Shown here piece after piece: positions 1,443 through 52,955 of a DNA stretch of 64,000 nucleotides (within the stretch, counting starts at the first letter, position 1; the number at the start of each line of letters is the position of its first letter). The stretch comes from Candidatus Magasanikbacteria bacterium GW2011_GWC2_37_14. Its GTDB lineage: Bacteria; Patescibacteriota; Patescibacteriia; Magasanikbacterales; UBA922. The notes below the pieces were generated by a model. It was not told the origin of the DNA. It saw nothing but the letters and a program-made list of their open reading frames with translations, and did not search any database. The translations under genes were made by a program, and so were the position numbers. Where the stretch lies: assembly GCA_000990355.1 (NCBI GenBank), contig LBSX01000002.1, positions 6,000 through 69,999 of the forward strand. Reading direction: 5' to 3'.

Positions 1443-1495
1443 CCCTCCCCTATGAGGGGAGGGGTAGCCTGCCTGCCGGTAGGCAGGGGTGGGGT
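1443..1495. repeat. GC-rich composite hairpin element (CCCTCCCCT/AGGGGAGGG hairpin plus CCTGCC/GGCAGG hairpin plus GGGGTGGGG)
   Basis: Two adjacent perfect hairpins in the spacer between convergent genes. The same modules recur at 37916-37953, 38422-38449, 47248-47273 and 31756-31777. Confidence 0.75.
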
Positions 1496-9860: not shown

Positions 9861-9865
9861 ATAAG

Positions 9866-9937
9866 CTCGGGAGGTGGGGATCGAACCCACGACCATCACG
9901 TTAACAGCGTGCCGCTCTACCGCTGAGCTACTCCCGA
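9866..9937 (-). tRNA. tRNA-Asn (anticodon GTT)
   Basis: Manual cloverleaf: acceptor TCGGGAG/CTCCCGA, D arm GCTC-AGCGGTA-GAGC, anticodon loop CTGTTAA, T arm GTGGG-TTCGATC-CCCAC. No encoded CCA. Confidence 0.9.
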
Positions 9938-9948
9938 ATATAAAATGT

Positions 9949-10077
9949 CTGTGTATTCACAGAAACTATGAACACATTAAATACCTTATACTTAAAGTGC
10001 GAAGCGGTACCACTGCCTGCCCGCCAAGCTTGCTGGTGATTGCGCCGGATGGTTGTGGTGTGAACCGAGAGGCGGGG
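9949..10077 (-). ncRNA. GC-rich structured leader or unknown RNA co-transcribed upstream of tRNA-Asn
   Basis: 129-nt GC-rich segment bracketed by 22-nt direct repeats (9927-9948 and 10078-10099) and preceded by a consensus promoter. CCCGCC/GGCGGG and other stems are present. Class not recognised. Confidence 0.35.
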
Positions 10078-10124
10078 GCTACTCCCGAATATAAATTGTT
10101 GGTATACTGTAAAATTGTGGTGAA

Positions 10125-19219: not shown

Positions 19220-19630
19220 ATGTTACAATTCAACAAAGAAGTAGACTATGCTTTGCAACTGCTTTTGGCATTAAAAAGTTTACCCGAAGGCCAGCTTTTG
19301 AGTTTAAGAAATTTTTCTAAAGGTAGTAAAATTTCTTTTTTATTTTTACAGCGTATCGCCTTTAAATTAAAAAATTCAGGAATTGTTAAGTCCGTAAAGG
19401 GGGCGCAAGGGGGTTATTATTTAGCCCAAAAACCACAAAAAATTACTTTTAAGAATGTGGTTGATTCTTTGGAAGGGGAATGTGTGGTAGCCAATTGTTT
19501 GCGAGCAGGTTTTTGTTGTGAAAAACAAAAGACTTGCAAGGTGCACGATGTTTTTTTCAATATCAACACCAAAATTTTGGAATATTTAAGTGCTATAAAT
19601 CTAGGTACAATTGCTAATTATGACAAATAA
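19220..19630 (+). CDS. Rrf2-family transcriptional regulator (IscR/CymR-like)
   Basis: N-terminal wHTH (DYALQLLLAL...) and a Cys cluster CVVANCLRAGFCCEKQKTC. First gene of the Fe-S operon. Confidence 0.8.
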   Translation: MLQFNKEVDYALQLLLALKSLPEGQLLSLRNFSKGSKISFLFLQRIAFKLKNSGIVKSVKGAQGGYYLAQKPQKITFKNVVDSLEGECVVANCLRAGFCCEKQKTCKVHDVFFNINTKILEYLSAINLGTIANYDK

Positions 19631-20927
19631 TTTACCTAAAAAACCAAAAACAAAAAAATTAGTATATTTGGATCATGCCGCTACTACATATGTAAGTCAA
19701 GAGGTAGAAAAAGCCACAAAGCCTTTTATAACCAAGATTTTTGGGAACCCCAGTAGTTTGTATGAACTAGGTAGAATTGCTAATGGTGAATTAAATGATT
19801 GCCGACGTAAAGTGGCGGAGATTTTACACGCCCTGCCTGACAATATTATTTTTACGGGTGGTGGTAGTGAATCAGATAACTTGGCTATTTTTGGTGTTTG
19901 TAGAAAAATTGGTAAAGGTCATATTATTGCTACCAGGATAGAACATCACGCAGTGCTTTATCCTTGCCAACAATTAGAAAAAGAAGGTTTTACTGTTACT
20001 TACCTAGAACCAGATTCACAAGGTTTTATTTCACCCAAAAAAGTTTTAGCGGCAATTAAACCAGACACAATTTTGATTTCTATAATGTATGCTAATAATG
20101 AAATTGGTACTGTAGAACCAATTGCTGATATTGGTCGCGAGATTTTAAAATATCGTAAAGCCAACAATCCTTCGGCAGGCTCAGGACAAGTTCAGTATCC
20201 TATTTTTCATACCGATGCTTGCCAAGCCGGTGGAGTGCTGGAATTAGATGTAGAAAAATTACATGTGGACCTAATGACACTTAATGGTAGTAAAATTTAT
20301 GGACCAAAAGGTGTGGGTTTGCTTTACAAACGTCGTGGAGTAAATATTCAACCACTTATTTTTGGTGGTGGTCAAGAAATGAATTTGCGTAGTGGTACTG
20401 AAAATTTAGCTGGCATTGTAGGTTTTACCAAAGCTTTGGAAATTGCTCAAGAAAATCGTCACGAAGAAAATATGCGTTTAGTAGATTTGCGCAATTATTT
20501 TTTTGATCAAATACAAAAGAATATTAAAAATATTAGACTCAATGGTCCCCAACTTCACTCTGATAAAAATCAGAGTTACACTGGGCAAGCTGGTTCTGAA
20601 GTTCTAAACAGATTACCTAACAATCTAAATATTACATTTATTGATGTAGAAGGTGAGGCAATGCTTCTTTATTTAGATGCTTACGGAATTTGTTGTTCTA
20701 CTGGTTCGGCTTGTACTTCAATGTCATTAGAACCTTCACATGTTCTTACCGCTTTAGGTTTGCCCTATGAATACGCTCATGGTAGTTTAAGATTTACTTT
20801 GGGTTATTGTAATACAAAACAAGATATTGATTATGTAATGAGATACTTACCAGCAATTGTAGAAAAATTACGGGAAATGAGTCCGGTGCAGATGGGGAAA
20901 GTTCAACATGCCAAATATAAAAAATGA
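19620..20927 (+). CDS. nifS: cysteine desulfurase (NifS/IscS class)
   Basis: YLDHAATT, HTDACQA, SGTEN and the SACTS active-site Cys loop. ATG at 19620; the track start 19611 is TTG. Confidence 0.9.
   Translation: MTNNLPKKPKTKKLVYLDHAATTYVSQEVEKATKPFITKIFGNPSSLYELGRIANGELNDCRRKVAEILHALPDNIIFTGGGSESDNLAIFGVCRKIGKGHIIATRIEHHAVLYPCQQLEKEGFTVTYLEPDSQGFISPKKVLAAIKPDTILISIMYANNEIGTVEPIADIGREILKYRKANNPSAGSGQVQYPIFHTDACQAGGVLELDVEKLHVDLMTLNGSKIYGPKGVGLLYKRRGVNIQPLIFGGGQEMNLRSGTENLAGIVGFTKALEIAQENRHEENMRLVDLRNYFFDQIQKNIKNIRLNGPQLHSDKNQSYTGQAGSEVLNRLPNNLNITFIDVEGEAMLLYLDAYGICCSTGSACTSMSLEPSHVLTALGLPYEYAHGSLRFTLGYCNTKQDIDYVMRYLPAIVEKLREMSPVQMGKVQHAKYKK
20169..20191. repeat. 23-nt GC-rich element CCTTCGGCAGGCTCAGGACAAGT inside nifS
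   Basis: Near-identical to the typA copy. Encodes PSAGSGQ. Confidence 0.75.
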
Positions 20928-21024
20928 CAAATTACTAATATCTAATACCTAATGAAATGACAAATTTTAAAATTTAACATTAAGAATTTCATTAGAAATT
21001 AGTAATTAGACATTAGAAATTATT
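20928..21024. repeat. AT-rich long imperfect palindrome (nifS-nifU spacer)
   Basis: Left arm AATTACTAATATCTAAT... is mirrored by ...ATTAGAAATTAGTAATT. Same style as 24136-24262 and 31060-31181. Confidence 0.55.
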
Positions 21025-21929: not shown

Positions 21930-22649
21930 ATGGAAAATATTGGAAAACTTTATATTGTTGCCACCCCAATTGGCAATTTAGGCGACATTACTTTACGCGC
22001 TTTGGAAACATTAAAAAGTGTTGATTTTGTTTTGTGTGAAGATACCAGAGTTACCCAAAATTTACTAAATCATTTTGCTATTAAAACAAAAAGTATTTCC
22101 TACCACCAACATAGCGGTGTAGAAAAAATAAGTGAAATTATTAAATTATTAGAGACCGGTAAAAATTTAGCTCTTGTAACCGATGCTGGCACTCCCGGTA
22201 TCTCTGATCCTGGGAATTATTTGATAGCTGAAATTGTCAAAAAATGTCATGCTGAATTTATTTCAGCATCTCAGGGGATCCTGAAACCAGTTCAGGATGA
22301 CAGTATTGTACCAATCCCAGGTGCTTCGGCAGTCATTACTGCTTTATCAATTTCTGGTTTTTCAACAGATAAATTTTTATTTCTGGGTTTTCCGCCACAT
22401 AAAAAGGGTCGCAAGACGTTTTTTGAAGAATTAGCAAAAGTAGAACACACAGTTTGTTTTTATGAATCAAATCATCGAATTAAAAAATGTTTAGGAGAAT
22501 TAGCCGACGTTTTGGAAGAAGATAGACAAATGTGCGTGTGCCGTGAATTAACAAAAAAATTTGAAACTATTTATCGTGGAACAATAAAAGAAATATTAAC
22601 AAAAAATATTTCCGAAAAAGGCGAATTTGTAATAGTAATTAGTAATTAA
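21930..22649 (+). CDS. rsmI: 16S rRNA (cytidine1402-2'-O)-methyltransferase RsmI
   Basis: LYIVATPIGNLGDITLRALETL...CEDTR...DAGTPGISDPG. Contains a hairpin-element insert. Confidence 0.9.
   Translation: MENIGKLYIVATPIGNLGDITLRALETLKSVDFVLCEDTRVTQNLLNHFAIKTKSISYHQHSGVEKISEIIKLLETGKNLALVTDAGTPGISDPGNYLIAEIVKKCHAEFISASQGILKPVQDDSIVPIPGASAVITALSISGFSTDKFLFLGFPPHKKGRKTFFEELAKVEHTVCFYESNHRIKKCLGELADVLEEDRQMCVCRELTKKFETIYRGTIKEILTKNISEKGEFVIVISN
22246..22301. repeat. GTCAT...ATGAC double-hairpin element, short form, inside rsmI
   Basis: ATGCTGAA/TTCAGCAT and ATCCTGAA/TTCAGGAT hairpins bracketed by GTCAT/ATGAC. Confidence 0.85.
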
Positions 22650-22650
22650 T

Positions 22651-24135
22651 ATGAAAAATTTTTATTTAACAACTACACTTCCATATGTAAATGCCGAACC
22701 TCACATTGGTTTTGCTTTGGAAATTATTCAAGCTGATGTAATTGCTCGTTATCATAAGTTGCTAGGTGAAGAAGTAATTTTTAATACTGGTACTGATGAG
22801 CATGGTTTAAAAATATATCGTAAAGCAATAGAACTGGGTGTTGAACTACAAAAATATTGCGACGAATATGCTGCCAAGTTCGATGCTTTAAAGCAAGCCT
22901 TAAATTTAAGTTATACTCATTTTATTCGTACTACCGACCCACATCATCTCAAAGCTGCTCAGGAATTTTGGTTACGTTGTGAAAAAAATGGTGATATTTA
23001 TAAAAAGAATTATAAAGTAAAATATTGTGTAGGTTGTGAATTAGAAAAAACTGATTCCGAATTGGTAGACGATAAATGTCCAGTGCATCCAAATTTAAAT
23101 ATTGAATTAATTGAAGAAGAAAATTATTTTTTTAAATTTTCTAAATTTCAAAAGCCATTACTGGAACTTTATAAAAAGAATCCAAAATTTGTTATTCCAG
23201 CCAATCGTCAATTAGAAATAAAAAACTTTGTGGAAAAAGGTTTGGAAGATTTTAGTATTTCTAGATTAAAAGAAAAAATGCCTTGGGGTATTCCAGTGCC
23301 AAATGATGCTGATCATGTAATGTACGTTTGGTTTGATGCTCTTATAAACTATATATCTACATTAGGTTGGCCAGAAGATGAAAATAATTTTAATAATTTT
23401 TGGCCAGGAATTCAAGTAGCCGGAAAAGATAATTTACGCCAACAATCGGCAATGTGGCAAGCAATGCTGTTGTCTGCAGGGTTGCCAACGTCAAAACAGA
23501 TATTTATTCATGGTTTTATTACCTCCGAAGGACAAAAAATGAGTAAGAGTTTCGGTAATGTTGTTGAACCTTATAAAATTGTAGATAAATATGGCACTGA
23601 TGCCACGCGTTATTTCTTGCTTGGTGGTTTGCCTTCATATGAAGATGGTGATTTTTCTATTGAACGTTTTGAAGAATTTTATACTGCTCATCTTGTAAAT
23701 GGAGTAGGGAATTTATCAAGTCGAATTTTGACGATGATTGAAAAATATTCAGAATCAAAAATACCAGCTCAAATAGCAGATAACAAATATCAGTTAACAG
23801 AATTTTGGGCAAGTTATGATAAATTTATTAATGAATATAGATTTGAATCAATTGTTGAATTGGTGAATAGTCTTGTTGGCCAACTTGATGGAATGATTTC
23901 AACAGAAAAACCATGGGAAAAAGCGAAAAAAGGTGAAGATATTTCTGGTTTACTTTATCAACTAGCTGAAGGTTTGCGTCATATTGCTGTAGCACTTTTA
24001 CCAATTATTCCCGAAACTGCAGAAAAGATTTTAAAACAATTAGGCACAGAAGATACTTCGCGCGACTGGGGAAAATTAGAAGAAGGTGGTATAATAAAAA
24101 AAGGCGTGATACTTTTCCCAAGACTGGAAAAATAA
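22651..24135 (+). CDS. metG: methionine--tRNA ligase
   Basis: Class I HIGH-type motif (PHIGF) and KMSKS. CxxC knuckles present. Confidence 0.95.
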   Translation: MKNFYLTTTLPYVNAEPHIGFALEIIQADVIARYHKLLGEEVIFNTGTDEHGLKIYRKAIELGVELQKYCDEYAAKFDALKQALNLSYTHFIRTTDPHHLKAAQEFWLRCEKNGDIYKKNYKVKYCVGCELEKTDSELVDDKCPVHPNLNIELIEEENYFFKFSKFQKPLLELYKKNPKFVIPANRQLEIKNFVEKGLEDFSISRLKEKMPWGIPVPNDADHVMYVWFDALINYISTLGWPEDENNFNNFWPGIQVAGKDNLRQQSAMWQAMLLSAGLPTSKQIFIHGFITSEGQKMSKSFGNVVEPYKIVDKYGTDATRYFLLGGLPSYEDGDFSIERFEEFYTAHLVNGVGNLSSRILTMIEKYSESKIPAQIADNKYQLTEFWASYDKFINEYRFESIVELVNSLVGQLDGMISTEKPWEKAKKGEDISGLLYQLAEGLRHIAVALLPIIPETAEKILKQLGTEDTSRDWGKLEEGGIIKKGVILFPRLEK

Positions 24136-24262
24136 TTTTCATTTTACAATTTACAATTTTCAATAAATTATCAATTTTCAATTACCAATTTGGAAATTGT
24201 TTCATTGAAAATTTATTGTAAATTGATTATTGATAATTGTAAATTTTATTTTTTAATTTTTT
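24136..24262. repeat. AT-rich long imperfect palindrome (metG-cvpA spacer)
   Basis: Shares the 22-mer TTGAAAATTTATTGTAAATTGA (24205-24226) with 31141-31162 and a TTTTCAATAAATT motif with 31091-31103. Confidence 0.6.
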
Positions 24263-28640: not shown

Positions 28641-29771
28641 ATGATGATTGACACTCACTGTCATATACAATTCAATTCATATAAAGACGATTATGAAGAA
28701 GTAATAAAAAGATGCACTGAAAAGGGTATGATTTTGAATTGTGTGGGTTCACAAATTGATACTAGTAGACGAGCAGTAGAGTATGCGGAAAAGTATGAAA
28801 ATATTTATGCCACCATTGGGCTTCACCCCGTGCATTTGTTTTCCAGTGAAGTAGATGAAGAAGAAACAAAATTTAAAACGCGTGAAGAAAAGTTTGATTA
28901 TGAAGAATATAAAAAATTAGCAGAACACCCCAAAGTGATTGGCATAGGGGAGTGTGGCTTAGAATTATTTCATCTTCCAAAAGATGCTAACAAAGATGAA
29001 ATTTTGGCAAAACAAAAAGAAGGATTTTTGTTACAATACAAATTGGCACAAGAATTAGCCTTGCCAATGGTAATTCATGTACGTGATGCTTATGATGAAA
29101 TGGTAGAGTTTCTAACTGTCATTGCGAGGAGGTCAACAGCCGACGAAGCAATCCCCAGTCAGAATGGGATTGCCACACCTCGTTCGGGCGAGGTTCGCAA
29201 TGACATTTGTGGAGTAGTGCATTGTTACTCTGGTAATTGGGCTCAGGCCTCTAAATTCATTGATTTAGGCCTGTACCTAGGCTTTACTGGGATTCTAACC
29301 TATCCAACAAGAAAAACCAACCCAAAGCCTACAGAAGACCTTGTAGAGGTAGTTAAAAATTGTCCTATAGAGCGAATTTTAATCGAAACAGACGCTCCTT
29401 ATCTAGCACCGCAGAAATATCGTGGACAGCGTTGCGAGCCATGGATGGTAGAAGAAGTTGCTGTAAAAATAGCAGAAATAAAGGGAATAAGTGTAGAAGA
29501 AGTTCGAGAACAAACAGTAAAAAATGCTTTGAAATTGTTTAAAAAATTAGATATTTGGCATTTTCATACTTGTCCCCAAGCAAATCTAAAAATCCCCTTG
29601 ACCAAAGAGGGGTTTTTTAGTAAAATATGTGCGTTCTTCAATAAACAATATTCAAGAAGTATATGGCTCTTTTACCTACTGATTCCAAGGATCGTCAATA
29701 TATGTTACTTGGTTTGCGCATTGCTGGTGATTTTGGTGCTACAATTGCTGTTCCAATTGTTCTTTTTGTAA
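28641..29771 (+). CDS. tatD: TatD-family metal-dependent hydrolase (homology ends near 29550; about 75-codon unsupported C-terminal extension)
   Basis: IDTHCH, GLHP, GECGLE, VIHVRDA, HCYSG and ETDAPYL motifs. There is no in-frame stop until 29771, so the ORF overlaps atpZ. Confidence 0.8.
   Translation: MMIDTHCHIQFNSYKDDYEEVIKRCTEKGMILNCVGSQIDTSRRAVEYAEKYENIYATIGLHPVHLFSSEVDEEETKFKTREEKFDYEEYKKLAEHPKVIGIGECGLELFHLPKDANKDEILAKQKEGFLLQYKLAQELALPMVIHVRDAYDEMVEFLTVIARRSTADEAIPSQNGIATPRSGEVRNDICGVVHCYSGNWAQASKFIDLGLYLGFTGILTYPTRKTNPKPTEDLVEVVKNCPIERILIETDAPYLAPQKYRGQRCEPWMVEEVAVKIAEIKGISVEEVREQTVKNALKLFKKLDIWHFHTCPQANLKIPLTKEGFFSKICAFFNKQYSRSIWLFYLLIPRIVNICYLVCALLVILVLQLLFQLFFL
29118..29204. repeat. 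87-nt GC-rich element with 10-bp terminal inverted repeats GTCATTGCGA/TCGCAATGAC inside tatD
   Basis: Internal hairpins GCAATCCC/GGGATTGC and CCTCG/CGAGG. Encodes VIARRSTADEAIPSQNGIATPRSGEVRND. Confidence 0.85.
29594..29618 (+). terminator. hairpin plus T6 (terminator-like) overlapping the atp promoter
   Basis: CCCCT / AGGGG stem followed by TTTTTT. Confidence 0.5.
29598..29626 (+). promoter_or_regulatory. candidate atp operon promoter TTGACC-N17-TAAAAT
   Basis: TTGACC 29598-29603, TAAAAT 29621-29626, 37 nt before the atpZ ATG. Confidence 0.5.
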
Positions 29772-31059: not shown

Positions 31060-31181
31060 CGTTTTAAATTTACAATTACTCAATTTACAGTTTTCAATAA
31101 ATTTACAATTACTCAATTTTCAAATTGATAAATTGTAGGATTGAAAATTTATTGTAAATTGAAAATTAAAAATTGAAAATT
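31060..31181. repeat. AT-rich long imperfect palindrome (atpE-atpF spacer)
   Basis: TTTTCAATAAATTTACAATTACTCAA... is mirrored by ...TTGATAAATTGTAGGATTGAAAA. The 22-mer at 31141-31162 is identical to 24205-24226. Confidence 0.6.
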
Positions 31182-34082: not shown

Positions 34083-34175
34083 GTCATGCTGAATTTATTT
34101 CAGCATCTCTTCGATAGATTACTTTTTGCTAAAATAATTAAATTAAGAAAGATCCTGAAACGAGTTCAGGATGAC
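34083..34175. repeat. GTCAT...ATGAC double-hairpin element, 93-nt long form (atpA-atpG spacer)
   Basis: Hairpin stems identical to 22246-22301 and 63253-63345. The AT-rich central spacer contains TGCTAAAAT (34127-34135). Confidence 0.85.
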
Positions 34176-37399: not shown

Positions 37400-40384
37400 A
37401 TGAAAGATCTGAATTTAGAACAAAAACAAGCAGTAGAATACACCTCTGGTCCGCTTTTGATTGTCGCCGGAGCTGGTACTGGTAAAACTACAGTAATCAC
37501 CCAAAAGATTACTTTTTTGGTTAAGCAAAATTTGGCCAAACCCGAAGAAATTTTGGCTTTAACTTTTACAGAAAAGGCAGCCGGGGAGATGCAGGAGCGC
37601 GTGGATCAACTATTGGATTTGGGTTATTCAGACATGCAGATTTCAACTTTTCATGCTTTTTGTCAAAAACTTTTAGAATTTCATGGGCTAGACATTGGCT
37701 TGTCAAATCAATTTAAATTATTAACTCCCACTGATGCTTGGCTCTTGGTACGTAAAAATTTAGATAAATTTAATTTGGATTATTATCGACCCCTGGGTAA
37801 TCCTACGCGCCATATCCATGAATTAATTAAACATTTTTCTAAGTGTAAGGATGAATTAATTACGCCAGCAGAATATTTAAAATATGCGGAAGAAGTGAGT
37901 TTGGATGATGATGCCGACCCCACCCCATCCTCCCCTACAAGGGGAGGGGAACGTAAGCGTCTCACTGAAATAGCTAATGCTTATCATACTTATAATCAAC
38001 TTTTGCTGGATAATAATTGTCTGGACTTTGGTGATCTAATTTTTTATGGCCTTAAATTGTTAAAAGAACGGCCAAATATTTTAAAATTATTGCAAAATAA
38101 ATATAAATATATTTTGGTTGACGAGTTTCAAGATGTTAATTATGCACAGTATGAATTGGTAAAATTGTTTACGACTAATGGAAATCAGTTAACAGTTGTG
38201 GGAGACGATGACCAGTCAATTTACGCCTTCCGCGGAGCATCGGTTTCCAATATCTTACGTTTTAAAGATGATTTTCCTAATGCCAAAGAAATTGTTTTAA
38301 CAGAAAATTATCGTTCAGGCCAAGAAATATTAGATTTAGCCTATAAATCAATACAAAATAATAATCCCGATCGTCTAGAGATTAAATTAAATATCAATAA
38401 ACAATTAAAGTCAGTAGTTAGTAGCCTGCCTGCCGGCGAGGCAGGTCTAAAGTCTGAAGTCGAATACAAGCATTTTAATACTTCAACTGAAGAAATTAAT
38501 TTTGTAATTAATAAAATTTGTGAGATTTGTAAAGATGAATCTGTAGTTTTGTCAGATTTTGCAATTTTAATTCGCGCCAATAGTCAGGCCGAACCGTTTA
38601 TTAATGCTTTTGAAAAAGTTGGTCTGCCTTATGAGTATCTGGCTTCGTCTGGATTATATCGCCAGCCATTAATTTTAGATTGTATTAACTTTTTAAAAGT
38701 ATTGGACAACTATCACGAATCCAGTGCTATTTTTCGTTTATTACATTTACCTTTTTTAAAATTTAATCCAGATGATTTACAAAAAATAACCTATTTTTCT
38801 AAGAAAAAAAGCATTTCTTATTATGAAACTCTAAAACGTGGATTGGAAATTAATTTATCAAAAACAGGTATTGAAATAGTCAATAAATTGTTAAATATAA
38901 TAAACAGTGGCACACAAATGGCCAAGGAAAAAAAACCTATAATAATTTTATTAGATTTTTTAGAACAAAGTGGTTATTTTAAATATCTTGCCTTGGAAGA
39001 TGAACAAGGTAATAGAGAAATAATTAAACAAATTAAAGAGCTACGAAGTTTTTTTGAAGAAGTTAAACACTACGAAGAATCAGTGCCTCAAGCACGCGTG
39101 TCAGATTTTTTGGAACATTATAATTATATTTTAGAGTCTGGTGATGAAGGGCAAATGTTTAAAAATCTAGAAGAAACAGAAGCGATAAAAATTTTAACGA
39201 TTCATTCTGCCAAGGGCTTAGAATTTAAATATGTTTTTGTTGTTAACTTGGTGGAAGAACGTTTTCCTAGTCGTAAACGTGGAGAAGCTATTGAATTGCC
39301 TGTATCATTAATTAAAGAAAATCTATCAGAAGTGGATTACCATGTTAATGAAGAAAGACGTTTATTTTATGTGGCCTGTACCAGAGCCAAAGAAAAATTA
39401 TTTTTAACTAGCGCGGATGATTATGGTGGGGTGAGAAAGAAGAAAGTTAGTAGGTTTATTGATGAATTAAATTTAAGTATGGAAGCAAGGCAACAATATA
39501 ACAATGTAACTATTGACACATTGCCACATTGTCACACTGTTGACAAAAAAGATATTAATCAGTCTAAAAGTACTACAATTTTATCTGACACCTTTTCCTA
39601 CTCCCAAATCAATTCATATCTTCGCTGTCCTTATCAGTATAAATTAGCCCATGTATTAAAAATTCCTACCACAGGCAATGCTAGTTTTAGTTTTGGTTCA
39701 ACTATACATAATACTTTACAAAAATTTTATAACCAGGTTATTGAATTAAATAGTATTAAACAAGATTCGTTGTTTGTTCAACATACTACAACTAAACAAG
39801 TTGGAGAAATAAAAGTTCCAACATTGGATAATTTACTAAAATTTTATAAAGATTCTTGGCAAGATGACTGGTATCAAAATAAACAACAACGAGAGGAATT
39901 TTACAAAAAAGGACATAAAATATTGGAAATATTTTATTCTTCAGAGCAAAAAAATGGCTGGACTGTGCCAGTTTTTCTAGAGAGCGGTTTTAAAATTAAA
40001 ATAGGAGATTATTTTATAAATGGACGCATAGATCATATTGATAAATTATCGGCTGGTGCTTTAAAGATTATTGATTATAAAACCGGTAAAGCTAAAGAAA
40101 AAGTAGTTGGCGATGATAAAAATCAACTGCTAATTTATCAAATTGCCGCGGAAATTTTACCTGAATACAAAAATATTGGCCCAGTTAGTGAATTAACTTT
40201 TTATTATTTAGAAGAAAATCTTACAACGTCTTTTGTTGGCGACGATAAAGACAAAACAAAACTACAAGAAAAAATTATCAAAACAATTGGGGAAATAAAC
40301 GATTCTAATTTTGTTGCCACACCCAGTGAACACATTTGTCAGCATTGTGATTTTAGAGACATTTGTCAGTTTAGACAATTATAA
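37400..40384 (+). CDS. UvrD/PcrA-type superfamily 1 helicase fused to a C-terminal PD-(D/E)XK nuclease with Cys4 (AddA/AddB-like)
   Basis: AGAGTGKT, VDEFQD, GDDDQSIYAFRGA, TIHSAKGLEF and VACTRAK helicase motifs. IIDYKTGK, QLLIYQ and RCPYQY...CQHCDFRDIC nuclease/Fe-S staple motifs. ATG at 37400. Confidence 0.85.
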   Translation: MKDLNLEQKQAVEYTSGPLLIVAGAGTGKTTVITQKITFLVKQNLAKPEEILALTFTEKAAGEMQERVDQLLDLGYSDMQISTFHAFCQKLLEFHGLDIGLSNQFKLLTPTDAWLLVRKNLDKFNLDYYRPLGNPTRHIHELIKHFSKCKDELITPAEYLKYAEEVSLDDDADPTPSSPTRGGERKRLTEIANAYHTYNQLLLDNNCLDFGDLIFYGLKLLKERPNILKLLQNKYKYILVDEFQDVNYAQYELVKLFTTNGNQLTVVGDDDQSIYAFRGASVSNILRFKDDFPNAKEIVLTENYRSGQEILDLAYKSIQNNNPDRLEIKLNINKQLKSVVSSLPAGEAGLKSEVEYKHFNTSTEEINFVINKICEICKDESVVLSDFAILIRANSQAEPFINAFEKVGLPYEYLASSGLYRQPLILDCINFLKVLDNYHESSAIFRLLHLPFLKFNPDDLQKITYFSKKKSISYYETLKRGLEINLSKTGIEIVNKLLNIINSGTQMAKEKKPIIILLDFLEQSGYFKYLALEDEQGNREIIKQIKELRSFFEEVKHYEESVPQARVSDFLEHYNYILESGDEGQMFKNLEETEAIKILTIHSAKGLEFKYVFVVNLVEERFPSRKRGEAIELPVSLIKENLSEVDYHVNEERRLFYVACTRAKEKLFLTSADDYGGVRKKKVSRFIDELNLSMEARQQYNNVTIDTLPHCHTVDKKDINQSKSTTILSDTFSYSQINSYLRCPYQYKLAHVLKIPTTGNASFSFGSTIHNTLQKFYNQVIELNSIKQDSLFVQHTTTKQVGEIKVPTLDNLLKFYKDSWQDDWYQNKQQREEFYKKGHKILEIFYSSEQKNGWTVPVFLESGFKIKIGDYFINGRIDHIDKLSAGALKIIDYKTGKAKEKVVGDDKNQLLIYQIAAEILPEYKNIGPVSELTFYYLEENLTTSFVGDDKDKTKLQEKIIKTIGEINDSNFVATPSEHICQHCDFRDICQFRQL
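37916..37953. repeat. GC-rich module CCCCACCCC plus CCTCCCCT-aca-AGGGGAGG inside the helicase gene
   Basis: Same hairpin as 1443-1463. Encodes DPTPSSPTRGGE. Confidence 0.75.
38422..38449. repeat. GC-rich module TAGCCTGCCTGCCGG...GGCAGG inside the helicase gene
   Basis: The 15-nt core TAGCCTGCCTGCCGG is identical to 1465-1479. Encodes SLPAGEAGL. Confidence 0.75.
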
Positions 40385-52184: not shown

Positions 52185-52955
52185 ATGACTAAAAAAACTT
52201 TGATAATTCTACCTGGATGGGGTGGAAACAAAGAAACGTGGAAAAATTTTGCAGAACTTGCGAGCAAAGATTTTGACGTACATATTATTGAATTGCCGTG
52301 TTTTGGCGATGAACCCTGCCCAAAAACAGTTTGGGATATTGAAGATTATGTTGAGTTTGTTAAAAATAAACTTCTTGAGCGTCATTCCCGCGAAGGCGGG
52401 AATCTTAAATTGGTGAAAGATCCCCGTTTTCACGGGGATGACGCAGTGCTATTAGGTCACTCATTTGGTGGACAAGTAGCCACGGTCTTTGCTTCCAAAT
52501 ACCCAGAGATGATTGAAAAACTTATTTTAACAGCACCGGCTGTTTTCCGCCCTAAAAAAACTTTTCGACGAGTAGTTTTCAATATTGGAGCAAAATTTGG
52601 TAAATTAATTTTTAAAATTCCTTGGATAGAAAATGGTTCCCTCTGGGCCGAAAAAATTTATCACCAAGCAATTGGTGCCAAAGATTATCATGATAGTTCG
52701 GGCATTAAACGAGAAATTTTTAAAAATATTATTCGTCAAGACAGGGGAGTGGAAGCTAGTAAAATTACTATACCAACTCTAATTGTTTGGGGTACAATGG
52801 ATGGTTATCTACCAGTTGCTGATGCTAATCAATTGAATAAATTAATAAAAAACTCTAAACTTGAAATAGTTAATGGTGGAAGACATGGATTACACCTACA
52901 AATACCAGAAAAACTTTTATATTTAATAAAATCTTTTCTTGAAAAAAATATATGA
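52185..52955 (+). CDS. alpha/beta hydrolase
   Basis: GHSFGG nucleophile elbow. Contains a hairpin-element insert just upstream of it. Confidence 0.75.
   Translation: MTKKTLIILPGWGGNKETWKNFAELASKDFDVHIIELPCFGDEPCPKTVWDIEDYVEFVKNKLLERHSREGGNLKLVKDPRFHGDDAVLLGHSFGGQVATVFASKYPEMIEKLILTAPAVFRPKKTFRRVVFNIGAKFGKLIFKIPWIENGSLWAEKIYHQAIGAKDYHDSSGIKREIFKNIIRQDRGVEASKITIPTLIVWGTMDGYLPVADANQLNKLIKNSKLEIVNGGRHGLHLQIPEKLLYLIKSFLEKNI
52379..52444. repeat. GCGTCAT...ATGACGC double-hairpin element inside the hydrolase gene
   Basis: ATTCCCGC/GCGGGAAT and ATCCCCG/CGGGGAT hairpins. Same architecture as the rsmI element but with different stems. Confidence 0.85.

What the first reader, a model, noticed from the sequence alone, without database searches (positions are those of the whole stretch)
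22246..22301. GC-rich GTCAT...ATGAC double-hairpin element embedded in-frame in rsmI
Positions 22246-22301 read GTC-ATGCTGAA-tttat-TTCAGCAT-ctcagggg-ATCCTGAA-accag-TTCAGGAT-GAC. That is two 8-bp hairpins whose stems differ at a single base, bracketed by a 5-nt terminal inverted repeat. The segment is much more GC-rich than the surrounding gene. The ORF stays open through it (CHAEFISASQGILKPVQDD). It splits the conserved RsmI stretch between DPGNYLI and IVPIPGASAVITALS, where E. coli RsmI has only a short linker as I recall. Two more copies with identical stems but different loops and spacers lie at 34083-34175 and 63253-63345. No transposase or integrase is present in the window. Related hairpin elements sit inside eight other conserved genes here: typA, nifS, the capA fusion, tatD, the helicase, the alpha/beta hydrolase, the trmH-like gene and the wecG-like gene. 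This resembles REP/PATE elements or Rickettsia palindromic elements, which colonise coding sequence without breaking it, but at an unusually high density for 64 kb of housekeeping genes.
Basis: partly seen in the sequence, partly recalled or inferred. Interest (0 to 1): 0.8.

Follow-up and report, generated by a model that had tools for sequence, protein, structure and literature searches.

The report
Hairpin-pair repeat inserted in rsmI
A 56-base pair of small DNA hairpins sits in-frame in a housekeeping methyltransferase gene of a candidate-phyla-radiation bacterium; it belongs to the known "CGTC-tagged" hairpin repeats that flank small GIY-YIG single-strand nucleases, so it is a new host and variant of a known kind, not a new kind of element.

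Summary
Window 22246-22301 is two 8-bp hairpins bracketed by GTCAT/ATGAC, in frame in rsmI of a Candidatus Magasanikbacteria genome. Full-length copies lie at 34083-34175 and 63253-63345, and a fourth lies just upstream of the window.

Each arm has the anatomy of a CGTC/TGTC-tagged REP, also called NTS or Ssn-related motif: YGTC, a stem starting with AT, a 5-nt loop, then C. The element is an inverted dimer of two such arms. In metagenome loci the same arms, in the same asymmetric order, flank a ~95-aa GIY-YIG gene of the Ssn type. I therefore read the element as a gene-less derivative of that unit.

The rsmI copy lacks the AT-rich, stop-containing spacer. Its arms are almost identical to those of the atpA/atpG copy. 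It encodes 19 residues in the interdomain linker, partly predicted disordered.

Of 120 RsmI orthologues, 38 carry long inserts in this linker. They are of several tag-bearing types and are patchy on a tree.

The Rickettsia palindromic element comparison is apt, because the literature equates RPE-4 and RPE-6 with CGTC repeats. The REP/PATE, IS200/IS605 and RAYT link is not supported.

How the element moves, and whether this genome encodes the nuclease, remain untested.

The parts
22246..22301 (.). Spacer-less inverted dimer of two TGTC-tagged hairpin arms. The left arm is GTC-ATGCTGAA-TTTAT-TTCAGCAT-C ('G-type'). The right arm, read on the minus strand, is GTC-ATCCTGAA-CTGGT-TTCAGGAT-C ('C-type'). 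It is in frame in rsmI and encodes CHAEFISASQGILKPVQDD.
   Evidence: The arms are 28/28 and 26/27 identical to the arms of the 34083-34175 copy.
21930..22649 (+). rsmI, the 16S rRNA C1402 2'-O-methyltransferase of the TP_methylase fold. This is the host gene. It keeps all 59 columns that are invariant among 69 orthologues.
34083..34175 (.). Full-length 93-nt dimer with an AT-rich spacer of about 45 nt. It lies between the atpA stop codon and the atpG start, and ends 6 nt before the ATG.
63253..63345 (.). Full-length 93-nt dimer in the clpB 5' leader. It lies downstream of a perfect sigma-70-type promoter (63191-63218) and a CIRCE-like operator (63220-63246), and ends 6 nt before the ATG.
52381..52442 (.). 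Inverted dimer of the classical NTS type, in frame in an alpha/beta hydrolase ORF, encoding RHSREGGNLKLVKDPRFHGDD. With its flanking base, the left arm (CGTCATTCCCGCGAAGGCGGGAATCTTA) matches 26 of 28 positions of the Neisseria NTS consensus. The right arm fits the published SRM pattern.
   Evidence: One search shows about 16 extra residues relative to PDB 6I8W.
29117..29205 (.). TGTC-tagged composite palindrome (GTCATTGCGA...TCGCAATGAC with inner hairpins), in frame in tatD, encoding VIARRSTADEAIPSQNGIATPRSGEVRND. It is absent from the tatD of two related Magasanikbacteria genomes.

Best explanation
**What it is.** The 56-nt segment is a non-autonomous inverted dimer of two hairpin units. The units belong to the CGTC/TGTC-tagged REP superfamily, which includes Neisseria dRS3/NTS, the 'Ssn-related motifs' and Rickettsia RPE-4/-6. 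Each unit is Y-GTC, an 8-bp stem beginning AT (ATSCTGAA), a YTTRT loop, the complementary stem, then C-Y.

**Where it comes from.** In many genomes two such units flank a single-domain GIY-YIG gene of about 95 aa, with the C-type unit upstream and the G-type unit downstream. That gene family was shown by Chenal et al. 2025 to bind the hairpin as single-stranded DNA and nick a few nucleotides 5' of the GTC tag. The copies here keep both arms in that order, so they lie on the window's minus strand. In place of the gene, the intergenic copies have about 45 nt of AT-rich spacer. The rsmI copy has only 8 nt.

**How it works in rsmI.** This short form is the only one that can sit in an ORF, because the spacer holds stop codons. 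It landed in the linker between the two domains of RsmI. It is most likely translated as a 19-residue addition there: the first residues extend helix 4 in the model and the middle is a low-confidence loop, so the enzyme probably still works.

**Shown.**
- The sequence family, and base-pair covariation in the stem.
- The association of the arms with GIY-YIG genes in other genomes.
- Presence/absence and type polymorphism among orthologues.
- Near-identity of the rsmI arms to another copy in the same genome.

**Inferred.**
- That an Ssn-like nuclease of this organism recognises these arms.
- That nicking drives spread or replacement. GIY-YIG enzymes hydrolyse and do not religate, so host repair, template switching or gene conversion would have to finish the job.
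- That the insert is kept in the protein.
For: **Arm anatomy.**
- The window has 8 units of the form GTC-AT(N6)-loop-(N6)AT-C, forming 4 inverted pairs. A looser hairpin scan for GTCAT followed by a perfect stem of at least 6 bp found these 8 plus one unrelated hit, against 1.8 in shuffles.
- These features match the published determinants. [quoted passage not shown]
- They also match the CGTC-REP definition: a CGTC or TGTC tag, an 8-9 bp stem starting AT, a 4-5 nt loop, and mostly inverted dimers, with spacers of 20-100 bp in most REP dimers (PMC3733652).

**Conservation across genomes.**
- An exact-pattern scan of species genomes gave at least 120 loci in many phyla, against about 4 expected by my own uniform-base estimate.
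- In 152 units the two S positions pair in 150, and the loop is YTTRT.

**Link to the GIY-YIG gene.**
- In L011 a Pfam GIY-YIG ORF (E = 1e-15) lies between a C-type and a G-type arm.
- Of 75 evaluable metagenome loci encoding relatives of that protein, 38 have a correctly oriented unit on both sides. Background is 0.15 units per kb.
- The stems change with the protein clade. Proteins with CTGAA/GTC arms are 49-62% identical to proteins flanked by canonical NTS arms.
- A syntenic Magasanikbacteria genome (L207) has a GIY-YIG gene inserted between Rrf2 and nifS, flanked by inverted hairpin units. It also has a CTGAA dimer between atpI and atpB.

**Recent origin within this genome.** The rsmI arms are 28/28 and 26/27 identical to the atpA/G copy. 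A fourth copy lies between ftsE and ftsX (L121).

**Polymorphism among orthologues.**
- 38 of 120 RsmI orthologues have a long linker, and 29 of these carry both tag-derived peptide ends.
- DNA confirms the same family in opposite orientation in L125, another copy in L126, an NTS-type dimer in L209, another tagged type in L207 and an empty site in L208.
- The states are interleaved on an NJ tree.

**Tolerated position.**
- The AF2 model has mean pLDDT 86. Residues 111-121 are below 50 and lie between helix 94-106 and strand 126-129.
- PDB single-domain entries cover query residues 5-100 and 132-238, so the insert is at the domain boundary.
Against: - No GIY-YIG gene is present in the 64-kb window or in the 7.8 kb upstream. 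Whether this genome encodes the nuclease is unknown.
- Only 1 of the 120 genome loci with CTGAA arms has a GIY-YIG ORF within the up to 8 kb fetched around the match. This is expected for a dispersed repeat, but it gives no support by itself.
- The CTGAA arms do not fit the published SRM search pattern. No enzyme has been tested on them.
- The GIY-YIG genes closest to the L011 query have TTT/AAA instead of GTC/GAC next to the stems.
- No mechanism of insertion is known for this superfamily, and no target-site duplication is visible at the four copies.
- Insertion positions in RsmI differ, at 4-5 or 8-9 residues after DPGN. The 'hotspot' may therefore reflect tolerance of the linker rather than targeting.
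Confidence: 0.75

Rival explanations
1. The element is a REP/REPIN or PATE mobilised by a RAYT or IS200/IS605 HUH tyrosine transposase.
For: - It has the same general look: short hairpins, often as inverted dimers, dispersed in the genome and able to form a long hairpin.
- PMC3733652 leaves open that CGTC repeats might borrow other transposases.
Against: - The tag is YGTC, not GTAG.
- The ends are symmetric, unlike the asymmetric left and right ends of IS200/IS605.
- The four copies share no conserved flanking tetranucleotide.
- The gene found between such arms is GIY-YIG in 38 of 75 loci.
- PMC3733652 reports that no RAYT gene is flanked by CGTC units.
- No HUH gene was found in the window.
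Confidence: 0.04
2. The hairpins are mainly cis-acting RNA elements that control translation or mRNA stability. They would be selected for that role in front of atpG, clpB, ftsX and atpB, and the rsmI copy would be a by-product.
For: - All four intergenic copies seen have the same orientation. Three end 6-7 nt before the next start codon. The L207 copy ends 10 nt before the first ATG, or 12 nt before the called atpB start.
- The right arm contains AGGA, sequestered in its stem.
- The clpB copy lies in a transcribed leader.
- PMC3733652 argues that many REPs act as RNA.
Against: - The same arms occur inside ORFs and in many phyla in unrelated contexts.
- No Rfam family matches at gathering threshold.
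- The AGGA-to-ATG spacing of 11-12 nt is long.
- Promoter-like matches in the spacer are at chance level.
- Intergenic spacers are tiny in this genome, so almost any intergenic insertion ends near a start codon.
- SsnA does not bind RNA.
Confidence: 0.12
3. The 19 residues are an old, vertically inherited RsmI loop whose palindromy is incidental, or the segment is an assembly artefact.
For: The linker is length-variable in RsmI generally.
Against: - 82 of 120 close orthologues lack a long linker, and the shortest are exactly 19 aa shorter.
- The arms are near-identical to an intergenic copy 12 kb away.
- The element lies in opposite orientation in L125.
- Palindromy is kept in every orthologue DNA examined.
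- The identical protein is found on 9 contigs of different assemblies.
Confidence: 0.02

Closest known systems
CGTC-tagged REPs (Di Nocera, De Gregorio & Rocco 2013, PMC3733652), families CGTC-1 to CGTC-4, including Neisseria dRS3 and Rickettsia conorii RPE-6 and RPE-4
   Same: - It has the tag CGTC or TGTC, an 8-9 bp stem whose first two bases are AT, and a 4-5 nt loop.
- It has a short tail and is mostly arranged as inverted dimers, with spacers in the 20-100 bp range reported for most REP dimers.
- Intragenic dimers encode 20-30 aa.
- The arms here have a TGTC tag, an 8-bp stem starting AT and a 5-nt loop, which is the geometry described for family 2.
   Different: - The host is a candidate-phyla-radiation bacterium. 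The 2013 survey listed Proteobacteria, Chlorobi, Bacteroidetes, Spirochaetes and Thermotogae.
- The tail is CY rather than CCA.
- The family consensus figures are not held, so assignment to a numbered family could not be checked.
- That paper found no dedicated enzyme.
NTS / Ssn-related motifs and SsnA GIY-YIG single-strand nucleases (Chenal et al. 2025, PMC11893778)
   Same: - It shares the layout GTCAT, 6-nt stem core, loop, stem, ATC-Y.
- GTC and the C after the palindrome are conserved.
- The arrangement unit(+), GIY-YIG gene, unit(-) recurs.
- One window copy (52381-52442) is almost the Neisseria NTS itself.
   Different: - The CTGAA arms are AT-richer and are missed by the published SRM pattern.
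- The paper does not mention coding-sequence copies, candidate-phyla-radiation hosts or gene-less dimers as derivatives.
- The only demonstrated role is modulation of transformation in Neisseria. No biochemistry exists for the CTGAA type.
Rickettsia palindromic elements (Ogata et al. 2000; reviewed in PMC10969869)
   Same: - Palindromic repeats are inserted in frame in unrelated housekeeping genes.
- They are apparently compatible with protein fold and function.
   Different: - The classic RPE-1 elements are about 150 bp and encode a conserved peptide. Here the insert is 56 nt.
- The peptide is read in either of two frames.
- The host is unrelated to Rickettsia.
REPIN / RAYT systems and IS200/IS605-derived PATEs
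   Same: - Hairpin units occur in inverted pairs.
- A small nuclease gene lies between two units in the presumed parent.
- Recognition is presumed to be on single-stranded DNA.
   Different: - They have a GTAG tag and a HUH tyrosine transposase that can religate.
- PATEs have asymmetric ends and a fixed target tetranucleotide.
- None of these features is seen here.

Membership tests
CGTC-tagged REP / Ssn-related motif superfamily | An unpaired CGTC or TGTC tag lies directly 5' of the palindrome. | tested here: met
   All 8 units in the window have GTC, preceded by T or C. In 152 units from other genomes position -1 is C in 77 and T in 62.
CGTC-tagged REP / Ssn-related motif superfamily | The stem is 8-9 bp beginning with AT, and the loop is 4-5 nt. 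| tested here: met
   The stems are ATGCTGAA/TTCAGCAT and ATCCTGAA/TTCAGGAT with 5-nt loops. The stem base pair covaries in 150 of 152 units.
CGTC-tagged REP / Ssn-related motif superfamily | A C lies immediately 3' of the palindrome. This is the base most critical for SsnA binding. | tested here: met
   All 8 window units are followed by C. The determinant is taken from PMC11893778.
CGTC-tagged REP / Ssn-related motif superfamily | Units are arranged as inverted dimers with a spacer, typically 20-100 bp. | tested here: met
   The four intergenic dimers are 83-121 nt long. The two full-length copies in the window carry spacers of about 45 nt. The rsmI copy has an 8-nt spacer, below the 20-100 bp typical range. 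The 2013 paper also reports dimers with 1-2 bp or deleted spacers in Wolbachia.
CGTC-tagged REP / Ssn-related motif superfamily | The unit fits the published SRM search pattern HGTCWYN(0-2)YYVSBRHN(0-5)WNVSBRGN(0-2)RNCYNB. | tested here: not met
   Only the unit at 52416-52443 matches. The CTGAA arms do not, because A/T occupies S positions of the stem. This is a search heuristic, not a biochemical definition.
CGTC-tagged REP / Ssn-related motif superfamily | The same units flank an Ssn-type single-domain GIY-YIG gene somewhere. | tested here: met
   L011 shows this arrangement. So do 38 of 75 metagenome loci, including loci with GTC-tagged CTGAA or CCGAA arms (L149, L158, L159, L162).
CGTC-tagged REP / Ssn-related motif superfamily | A cognate Ssn nuclease is encoded in the same genome. 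| not testable with these tools
   Only about 72 kb of this genome could be read, and it holds no GIY-YIG ORF. A related Magasanikbacteria genome has one (L207).
CGTC-tagged REP / Ssn-related motif superfamily | The unit is bound and nicked as single-stranded DNA by the nuclease. | not testable with these tools
   This needs biochemistry.
Rickettsia palindromic elements | A palindromic repeat is inserted in frame in housekeeping ORFs without stop codons. | tested here: met
   This holds for rsmI, the alpha/beta hydrolase and tatD.
Rickettsia palindromic elements | The sequence is related to a named RPE family. | tested here: inconclusive
The literature equates RPE-6 and RPE-4 with CGTC-1 and CGTC-4. 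A Rickettsia endosymbiont locus carries CTGAA arms nested in an NTS dimer inside a 1136-aa ORF.
REP/REPIN-RAYT | The unit has a GTAG tag, and the units flank a RAYT (Y1 HUH) gene. | tested here: not met
   The tag is YGTC. The gene found between arms is GIY-YIG. RAYT genes were not searched for genome-wide.
IS200/IS605-derived PATE | The ends are asymmetric and subterminal, without terminal inverted repeats, and a conserved 4-5 nt target lies 5' of the left end. | tested here: not met
   The ends are a 26-nt inverted repeat. The left flanks of the four copies are AAAAAA, AGTAAT, CTCACT and TTAATC.
Classical DDE-type MITE | The element has terminal inverted repeats plus a target-site duplication. 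| tested here: not met
   Inverted repeats are present, but none of the four copies has a direct duplication at its borders.

The most novel reading that the evidence does not exclude
The RsmI interdomain linker, and similar loops in other housekeeping proteins, may be a true landing pad for Ssn-associated hairpin dimers in candidate-phyla-radiation bacteria. On this reading, nicking of the hairpins in single-stranded DNA triggers repeated insertion, replacement by other dimer types and precise loss. These very small genomes would then keep remodelling protein loops. Alternatively the dimers could mark essential genes against replacement by DNA taken up from outside, as NTS repeats do in Neisseria. 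That would make GIY-YIG nuclease/hairpin units a new class of mobile element with a defined coding-sequence niche.
Probability: 0.15. Interest if true: 0.75.

Novelty: new member of a known kind. Interest (0 to 1): 0.5.

Why it matters
The repeat class was catalogued in 2013 without an enzyme. In 2025 it was tied to a single-strand nuclease, but how the repeats spread and what they do outside Neisseria remain open.

This window contributes four things:
- The class reaches candidate-phyla-radiation bacteria.
- An AT-rich variant missed by the published search pattern has its own GIY-YIG clade.
- Gene-less dimers keep the arm order of the gene-bearing unit.
- One protein linker is occupied again and again by different dimer types.

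That last pattern gives a concrete, countable system, RsmI orthologues with and without inserts, for asking whether these elements target sites or are merely tolerated. It also bears on annotation. Peptides such as VIAS...PRND, VILSEA...AQDD and CH.EFIS...QDD in candidate-phyla-radiation proteins are repeat-derived.

Tried and rejected
- **Rfam.** At gathering threshold on the whole window only tRNA-Asn matched, so no known RNA family covers the element.
- **First GIY-YIG regex.** It was too strict on the spacing between the YIG and R..EH motifs and found nothing. The corrected version found one gene in 120 loci.
- **Contig extension.** Two look-ups failed on the start codon chosen for the trmH-like gene. 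The third showed that other assemblies end in clpB. Only 7.8 kb upstream could be added, so the rest of the genome could not be searched for a nuclease.
- **Search for the nuclease in this genome.** A search with the Magasanikbacteria GIY-YIG protein gave 44 relatives. Some are named Patescibacteria, but none could be assigned to this genome.
- **Promoter in the spacer.** The matches are at chance level.
- **Shine-Dalgarno supplied by the right arm (AGGA).** I considered this, but the 11-12 nt spacing is long and I did not test it further.
- **RNA-level removal of the insert.** I considered this and judged it unlikely. All coding copies keep the frame and are stop-free, and the coding form lacks exactly the stop-rich spacer.
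- **Literature.** Searches for in-frame palindromic elements or hairpin repeats inside genes of candidate-phyla-radiation or Patescibacteria genomes surfaced no report of such elements in these organisms, and no paper holds both 'Rickettsia palindromic' and 'GIY-YIG'.
- **Ogata 2002 RPE paper.** It is not in the library.
Full report
**1. The observation**

Window 22246-22301 reads GTC-ATGCTGAA-tttat-TTCAGCAT-ctcagggg-ATCCTGAA-accag-TTCAGGAT-GAC. It lies in the 239-aa ORF 21930-22649(+), which stays open through it.

- The ORF is RsmI. It matches PDB 3KWP at E = 1.6e-51 and E. coli RsmI 5HW4 at E = 5.8e-48. In both alignments a 13-residue gap lies opposite the insert.
- The pattern ATSCTGAA-N5-TTCAGSAT occurs six times in the window, against 0.1 expected. 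The other four hits form the reported copies at 34083-34175 and 63253-63345.
- The segment folds as single-stranded DNA far better than shuffles, with z about -4.7. It folds either as two local hairpins or as one long hairpin.
- It is 45% GC against 32% for the rest of the gene. The full-length copies are only 30-31% GC, so 'much more GC-rich' is overstated.
- The identical protein occurs on 9 contigs from different assemblies, so the segment is not an assembly artefact.
- The organism is a Candidatus Magasanikbacteria bacterium of the candidate phyla radiation.

**2. Anatomy of the family in this genome**

- A fourth copy lies 4 kb upstream of the window, between ftsE and ftsX. A small extra hairpin is nested in the loop of its left arm (L121).
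- The three intergenic copies are 93-121 nt long. The two in the window have AT-rich central spacers of about 45 nt, and the spacers of all three are homologous.
- All three have the same orientation and end 6-7 nt before the next start codon.
- The rsmI copy has the two arms but only 8 nt between them.
- Its arms are 28/28 and 26/27 identical to the arms of the atpA/atpG copy. RsmI proteins of the nearest relatives are only 72-80% identical. The copy is therefore young, or is kept uniform with the other copies.
- The AT-rich spacer contains TAA and TAG codons. Only a spacer-less form could survive in an ORF.
- No target-site duplication or shared flanking motif is seen at the four copies.

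**3. What the arms are**

Each arm is Y-GTC, then AT plus six bases, a 5-nt loop, the complement ending in AT, then C.

A looser hairpin scan found the eight such units in the window plus one unrelated hit, against 1.8 in shuffles; the stricter unit scan returns exactly the eight. They form four inverted pairs:
- the rsmI copy;
- the two intergenic copies;
- a pair at 52381-52442 inside an alpha/beta hydrolase ORF.

The left arm of the hydrolase pair, CGTCATTCCCGCGAAGGCGGGAATCTTA, matches 26 of 28 positions of the Neisseria meningitidis NTS consensus CGTCATTCCCGCGMAVGCGGGAATCYRG.

A text search for such strings led to Chenal et al. 2025 (PMC11893778). That paper reports the following:
- NTS, which contains the dRS3 repeat, and the wider 'Ssn-related motifs' are bound as single-stranded DNA by a 94-aa GIY-YIG nuclease, SsnA.
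- SsnA cuts a few nucleotides upstream of the motif.
- The ssnA gene is often flanked by the motif on both sides.

A second paper, Di Nocera et al. 2013 (PMC3733652), had already defined 'CGTC-tagged REPs':
- The tag is CGTC or TGTC, the stem is 8-9 bp beginning AT, and the loop is 4-5 nt.
- They are mostly inverted dimers; spacers in most REP dimers measure 20-100 bp.
- CGTC-1 equals dRS3 and Rickettsia conorii RPE-6, and CGTC-4 equals RPE-4.
- Intragenic dimers encode 20-30 residues.
- No dedicated transposase was known.

The arms here fit that definition point by point. They do not fit the narrower SRM search pattern of the 2025 paper, which matches only one of the eight units.

**4. Distribution and structural constraint**

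- My own uniform-base estimate of the chance expectation is about 4.
- The 80 loci whose titles were listed include Sphingomonadaceae, Pedobacter, Treponema, Gastranaerophilales, several candidate-phyla-radiation groups, a Rickettsia endosymbiont and a Nanoarchaeota bin.

In the 152 units recovered:
- the two S positions form a pair in 150, with 88 G-C and 62 C-G;
- the loop is YTTRT;
- the base before GTC is C or T, and the base after ATC is T or C.

Eleven loci have the same plus/minus pair 76-138 nt apart. About 12% of units lie well inside open frames of at least 150 codons. This count is rough, especially for GC-rich genomes.

**5. Link to a GIY-YIG gene**

- One of the 120 loci, L011 from a Bacteroidetes bin, has a 102-aa ORF with a Pfam GIY-YIG domain (E = 1e-15). 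The ORF lies between an ATCCTGAA arm upstream and an ATGCTGAA arm downstream.
- Relatives of this protein sit mostly on very short contigs, as multi-copy sequences do.
- A metagenome scan with an alignment of these proteins returned 80 loci.
- Of 75 loci with enough flanking DNA, 38 have a correctly oriented unit on both sides and 11 on one side. Background is 0.15 units per kb.
- The stems follow the protein clade:

| Identity to query | Upstream arm | Downstream arm |
|---|---|---|
| 68-92% | ATCCTGAA or ACCCTGAA | ATGCTGAA, with TTT/AAA in place of the tag in most |
| 56-66% | GTC-tagged ATCCTGAA, ATTCTGAA or ATTCCGAA | GTC-tagged ATGCTGAA in most; ATGCCGAA, ATTCCGAA, ATTCTGAA or ACCCTGAG in the rest |
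| about 49-62% | mostly canonical ATTCCCGC (NTS) arms or close variants | mostly canonical ATTCCCGC (NTS) arms or close variants |

- Proteins with CTGAA arms are 49-62% identical to proteins with NTS arms. They are therefore one protein family.
- Across the two CTGAA-type clades the arm order is C- or T-type upstream. The downstream arm is G-type in all of the closest clade and in four of the eight loci of the second.
- The window's elements carry the G-type arm on the left and the C-type arm on the right. They also share the short inner motifs next to the arms, ATCTTTC after the C-type arm and GAG before the G-type arm.
- I conclude that they are gene-less derivatives of such a unit, lying on the minus strand.

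**6. Magasanikbacteria relatives**

- A syntenic contig of a related genome (L207, GCA_003510435.1; RsmI 76% identical by BLASTP) has a 114-aa GIY-YIG gene inserted between Rrf2 and nifS. These two genes overlap in the window.
- That gene is flanked by inverted hairpin units of another stem type.
- The same contig has a CTGAA dimer between atpI and atpB.
- Another relative (L208) has no unit in 20 kb and an empty rsmI site.
- Whether the window's own genome encodes the nuclease could not be tested. The window and 7.8 kb upstream hold none, and the rest of the genome could not be reached.

**7. The rsmI site**

- Among the 120 closest orthologues, the segment between DPGN and PIPG is most often 16 residues long.
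- In 38 of them it is 24-52 residues.
- 29 of those begin with V-I, V-V or C-H and end with xDD or RND. These are the translations of GTCAT and ATGAC in the two open frames.
- Only two other internal inserts of at least 8 residues occur anywhere else in these proteins.
- DNA of five orthologues confirms palindromic tagged dimers:
  - the same CTGAA family in L125, in the opposite orientation, and in L126;
  - an NTS-type dimer in L209;
  - another tagged type in L207.
- On a neighbour-joining tree built without the linker, insert-bearing and insert-free sequences are interleaved, and the three CTGAA-type sequences are not neighbours. The tree is poorly resolved, so this is suggestive only.
- The junctions are not at one nucleotide. 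Most V-I inserts start 4-5 residues after DPGN, and the CTGAA ones start 8-9 residues after it.

There have therefore been several independent events in a short region. Tolerance of the linker is enough to explain much of the clustering. Active targeting is possible but not shown.

**8. Effect on the protein**

- RsmI here keeps all 59 columns that are invariant in 69 orthologues.
- An AlphaFold2 model has mean pLDDT 86. The only stretch below 50 is residues 111-121, between helix 94-106 and strand 126-129.
- PDB entries of isolated domains cover query residues 5-100 and 132-238. The insert therefore sits at the boundary between the two domains.
- Translation as a partly disordered addition to the linker is the simplest reading. 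It is inferred, not shown.

**9.

- **tatD** carries a TGTC-tagged composite palindrome at 29117-29205. It encodes VIARRS...EVRND and is absent from two relatives.
- **The alpha/beta hydrolase** pair adds about 16 residues just before the nucleophile elbow.
- **The helicase** (37929-37947 and 38425-38445), **the trmH-like gene** (61271-61363) and **the wecG-like gene** (62530-62690) carry GC-rich hairpins of other families, with stems CCTCCCC/GGGGAGG and CCTGCC/GGCAGG and no GTC tag.
- **nifS** has two small lineage-specific inserts.
- **typA and the capA fusion** were not examined.

**10. Verdict**

- The finding is real. It is a member of a known repeat class in a new host group.
- It is a variant not covered by the published search pattern, with a clear gene-bearing relative.
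- The comparison with Rickettsia palindromic elements is apt.
- The REP/PATE/HUH-transposase idea is not supported.
- The recurrent occupation of one RsmI linker by different dimer types is the most interesting new point.
- The mechanism of spread remains unknown.

Noticed in passing
window 9984-10096 (minus strand): A GC-rich (56%) stretch of about 105 nt lies downstream of a TTGACA-N17-TATAAT promoter-like site. It starts with the same 18 nt (TTTATATTCGGGAGTAGC) as the leader plus 5' end of the adjacent tRNA-Asn (9865-9937). It has no Rfam match, even at E = 1. It may be an unannotated small RNA or a tRNA-derived fragment.
   Followed up: partly
window 1443-1487, 37929-37947, 38425-38445, 61271-61363, 62530-62690: There are other families of GC-rich hairpins: CCCTCCCCT..AGGGGAGGG and GCCTGCCTGCCGG..AGGCAGG. 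One site is intergenic. The others are in frame in the UvrD/PD-(D/E)XK helicase, the SpoU methyltransferase and the WecG-like gene. The CCTGCCTGCCGG..CAGGCAGG hairpin also lies just downstream of GIY-YIG genes in L155 and L166. Peptides that look derived from these families (for example SPLPRG, PLFKEG, YQEGVGG) fill the RsmI linker in other orthologues (P0086, P0110, P0111, P0116).
   Followed up: partly
window 20920-21024, 24128-24251, 31080-31181: An AT-rich palindromic repeat family (core ATTGAAAATTTATTGTAAATTG) occupies intergenic spacers upstream of nifU, cvpA and atpF. One public assembly of this region ends close to the 24.2-kb copy.
   Followed up: no
window 63191-63246: A perfect sigma-70-type promoter (TTGACA-16-TATAAT with an upstream TG) is followed by a CIRCE-like inverted repeat, TTAGCACTC-N9-GAGTGATAA. 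Both lie in front of clpB, and the hairpin dimer is inserted between this operator and the start codon.
   Followed up: partly
L207 6405-6875: In a syntenic Magasanikbacteria genome a 114-aa GIY-YIG gene lies between Rrf2 and nifS. It is flanked by inverted TTA-ATCTC...GAGAT-C hairpin units. In the window these two genes overlap (19220-19630 and 19620-20927).
   Followed up: partly
L078 590-730 and 1644-1770: In a Rickettsia endosymbiont, CTGAA-type dimers are nested inside NTS-type (ATTCCCGC) dimers. The second composite lies inside a 1136-aa open reading frame. This ties RPE-like coding inserts directly to the same arms.
   Followed up: partly
window about 29550-29771: The tatD ORF runs on for about 72 hydrophobic residues beyond the end of its orthologues in L207 and L208. 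This may be a fused small membrane ORF or a lost stop codon.
   Followed up: no
L121 3845-3965: In the ftsE/ftsX copy of the element, a second small hairpin (TCCTGAA-ataaa-TTCAGGA) is inserted in the loop of the left arm. Arms can therefore be targets for further insertion.
   Followed up: no
window 20169-20189 and about 20556-20606: nifS has two lineage-specific inserts of 7 and 13 residues relative to L207 and L208. The second contains an 8-bp hairpin, ACTCTGAT-aaaa-ATCAGAGT, without a GTC tag.
   Followed up: partly
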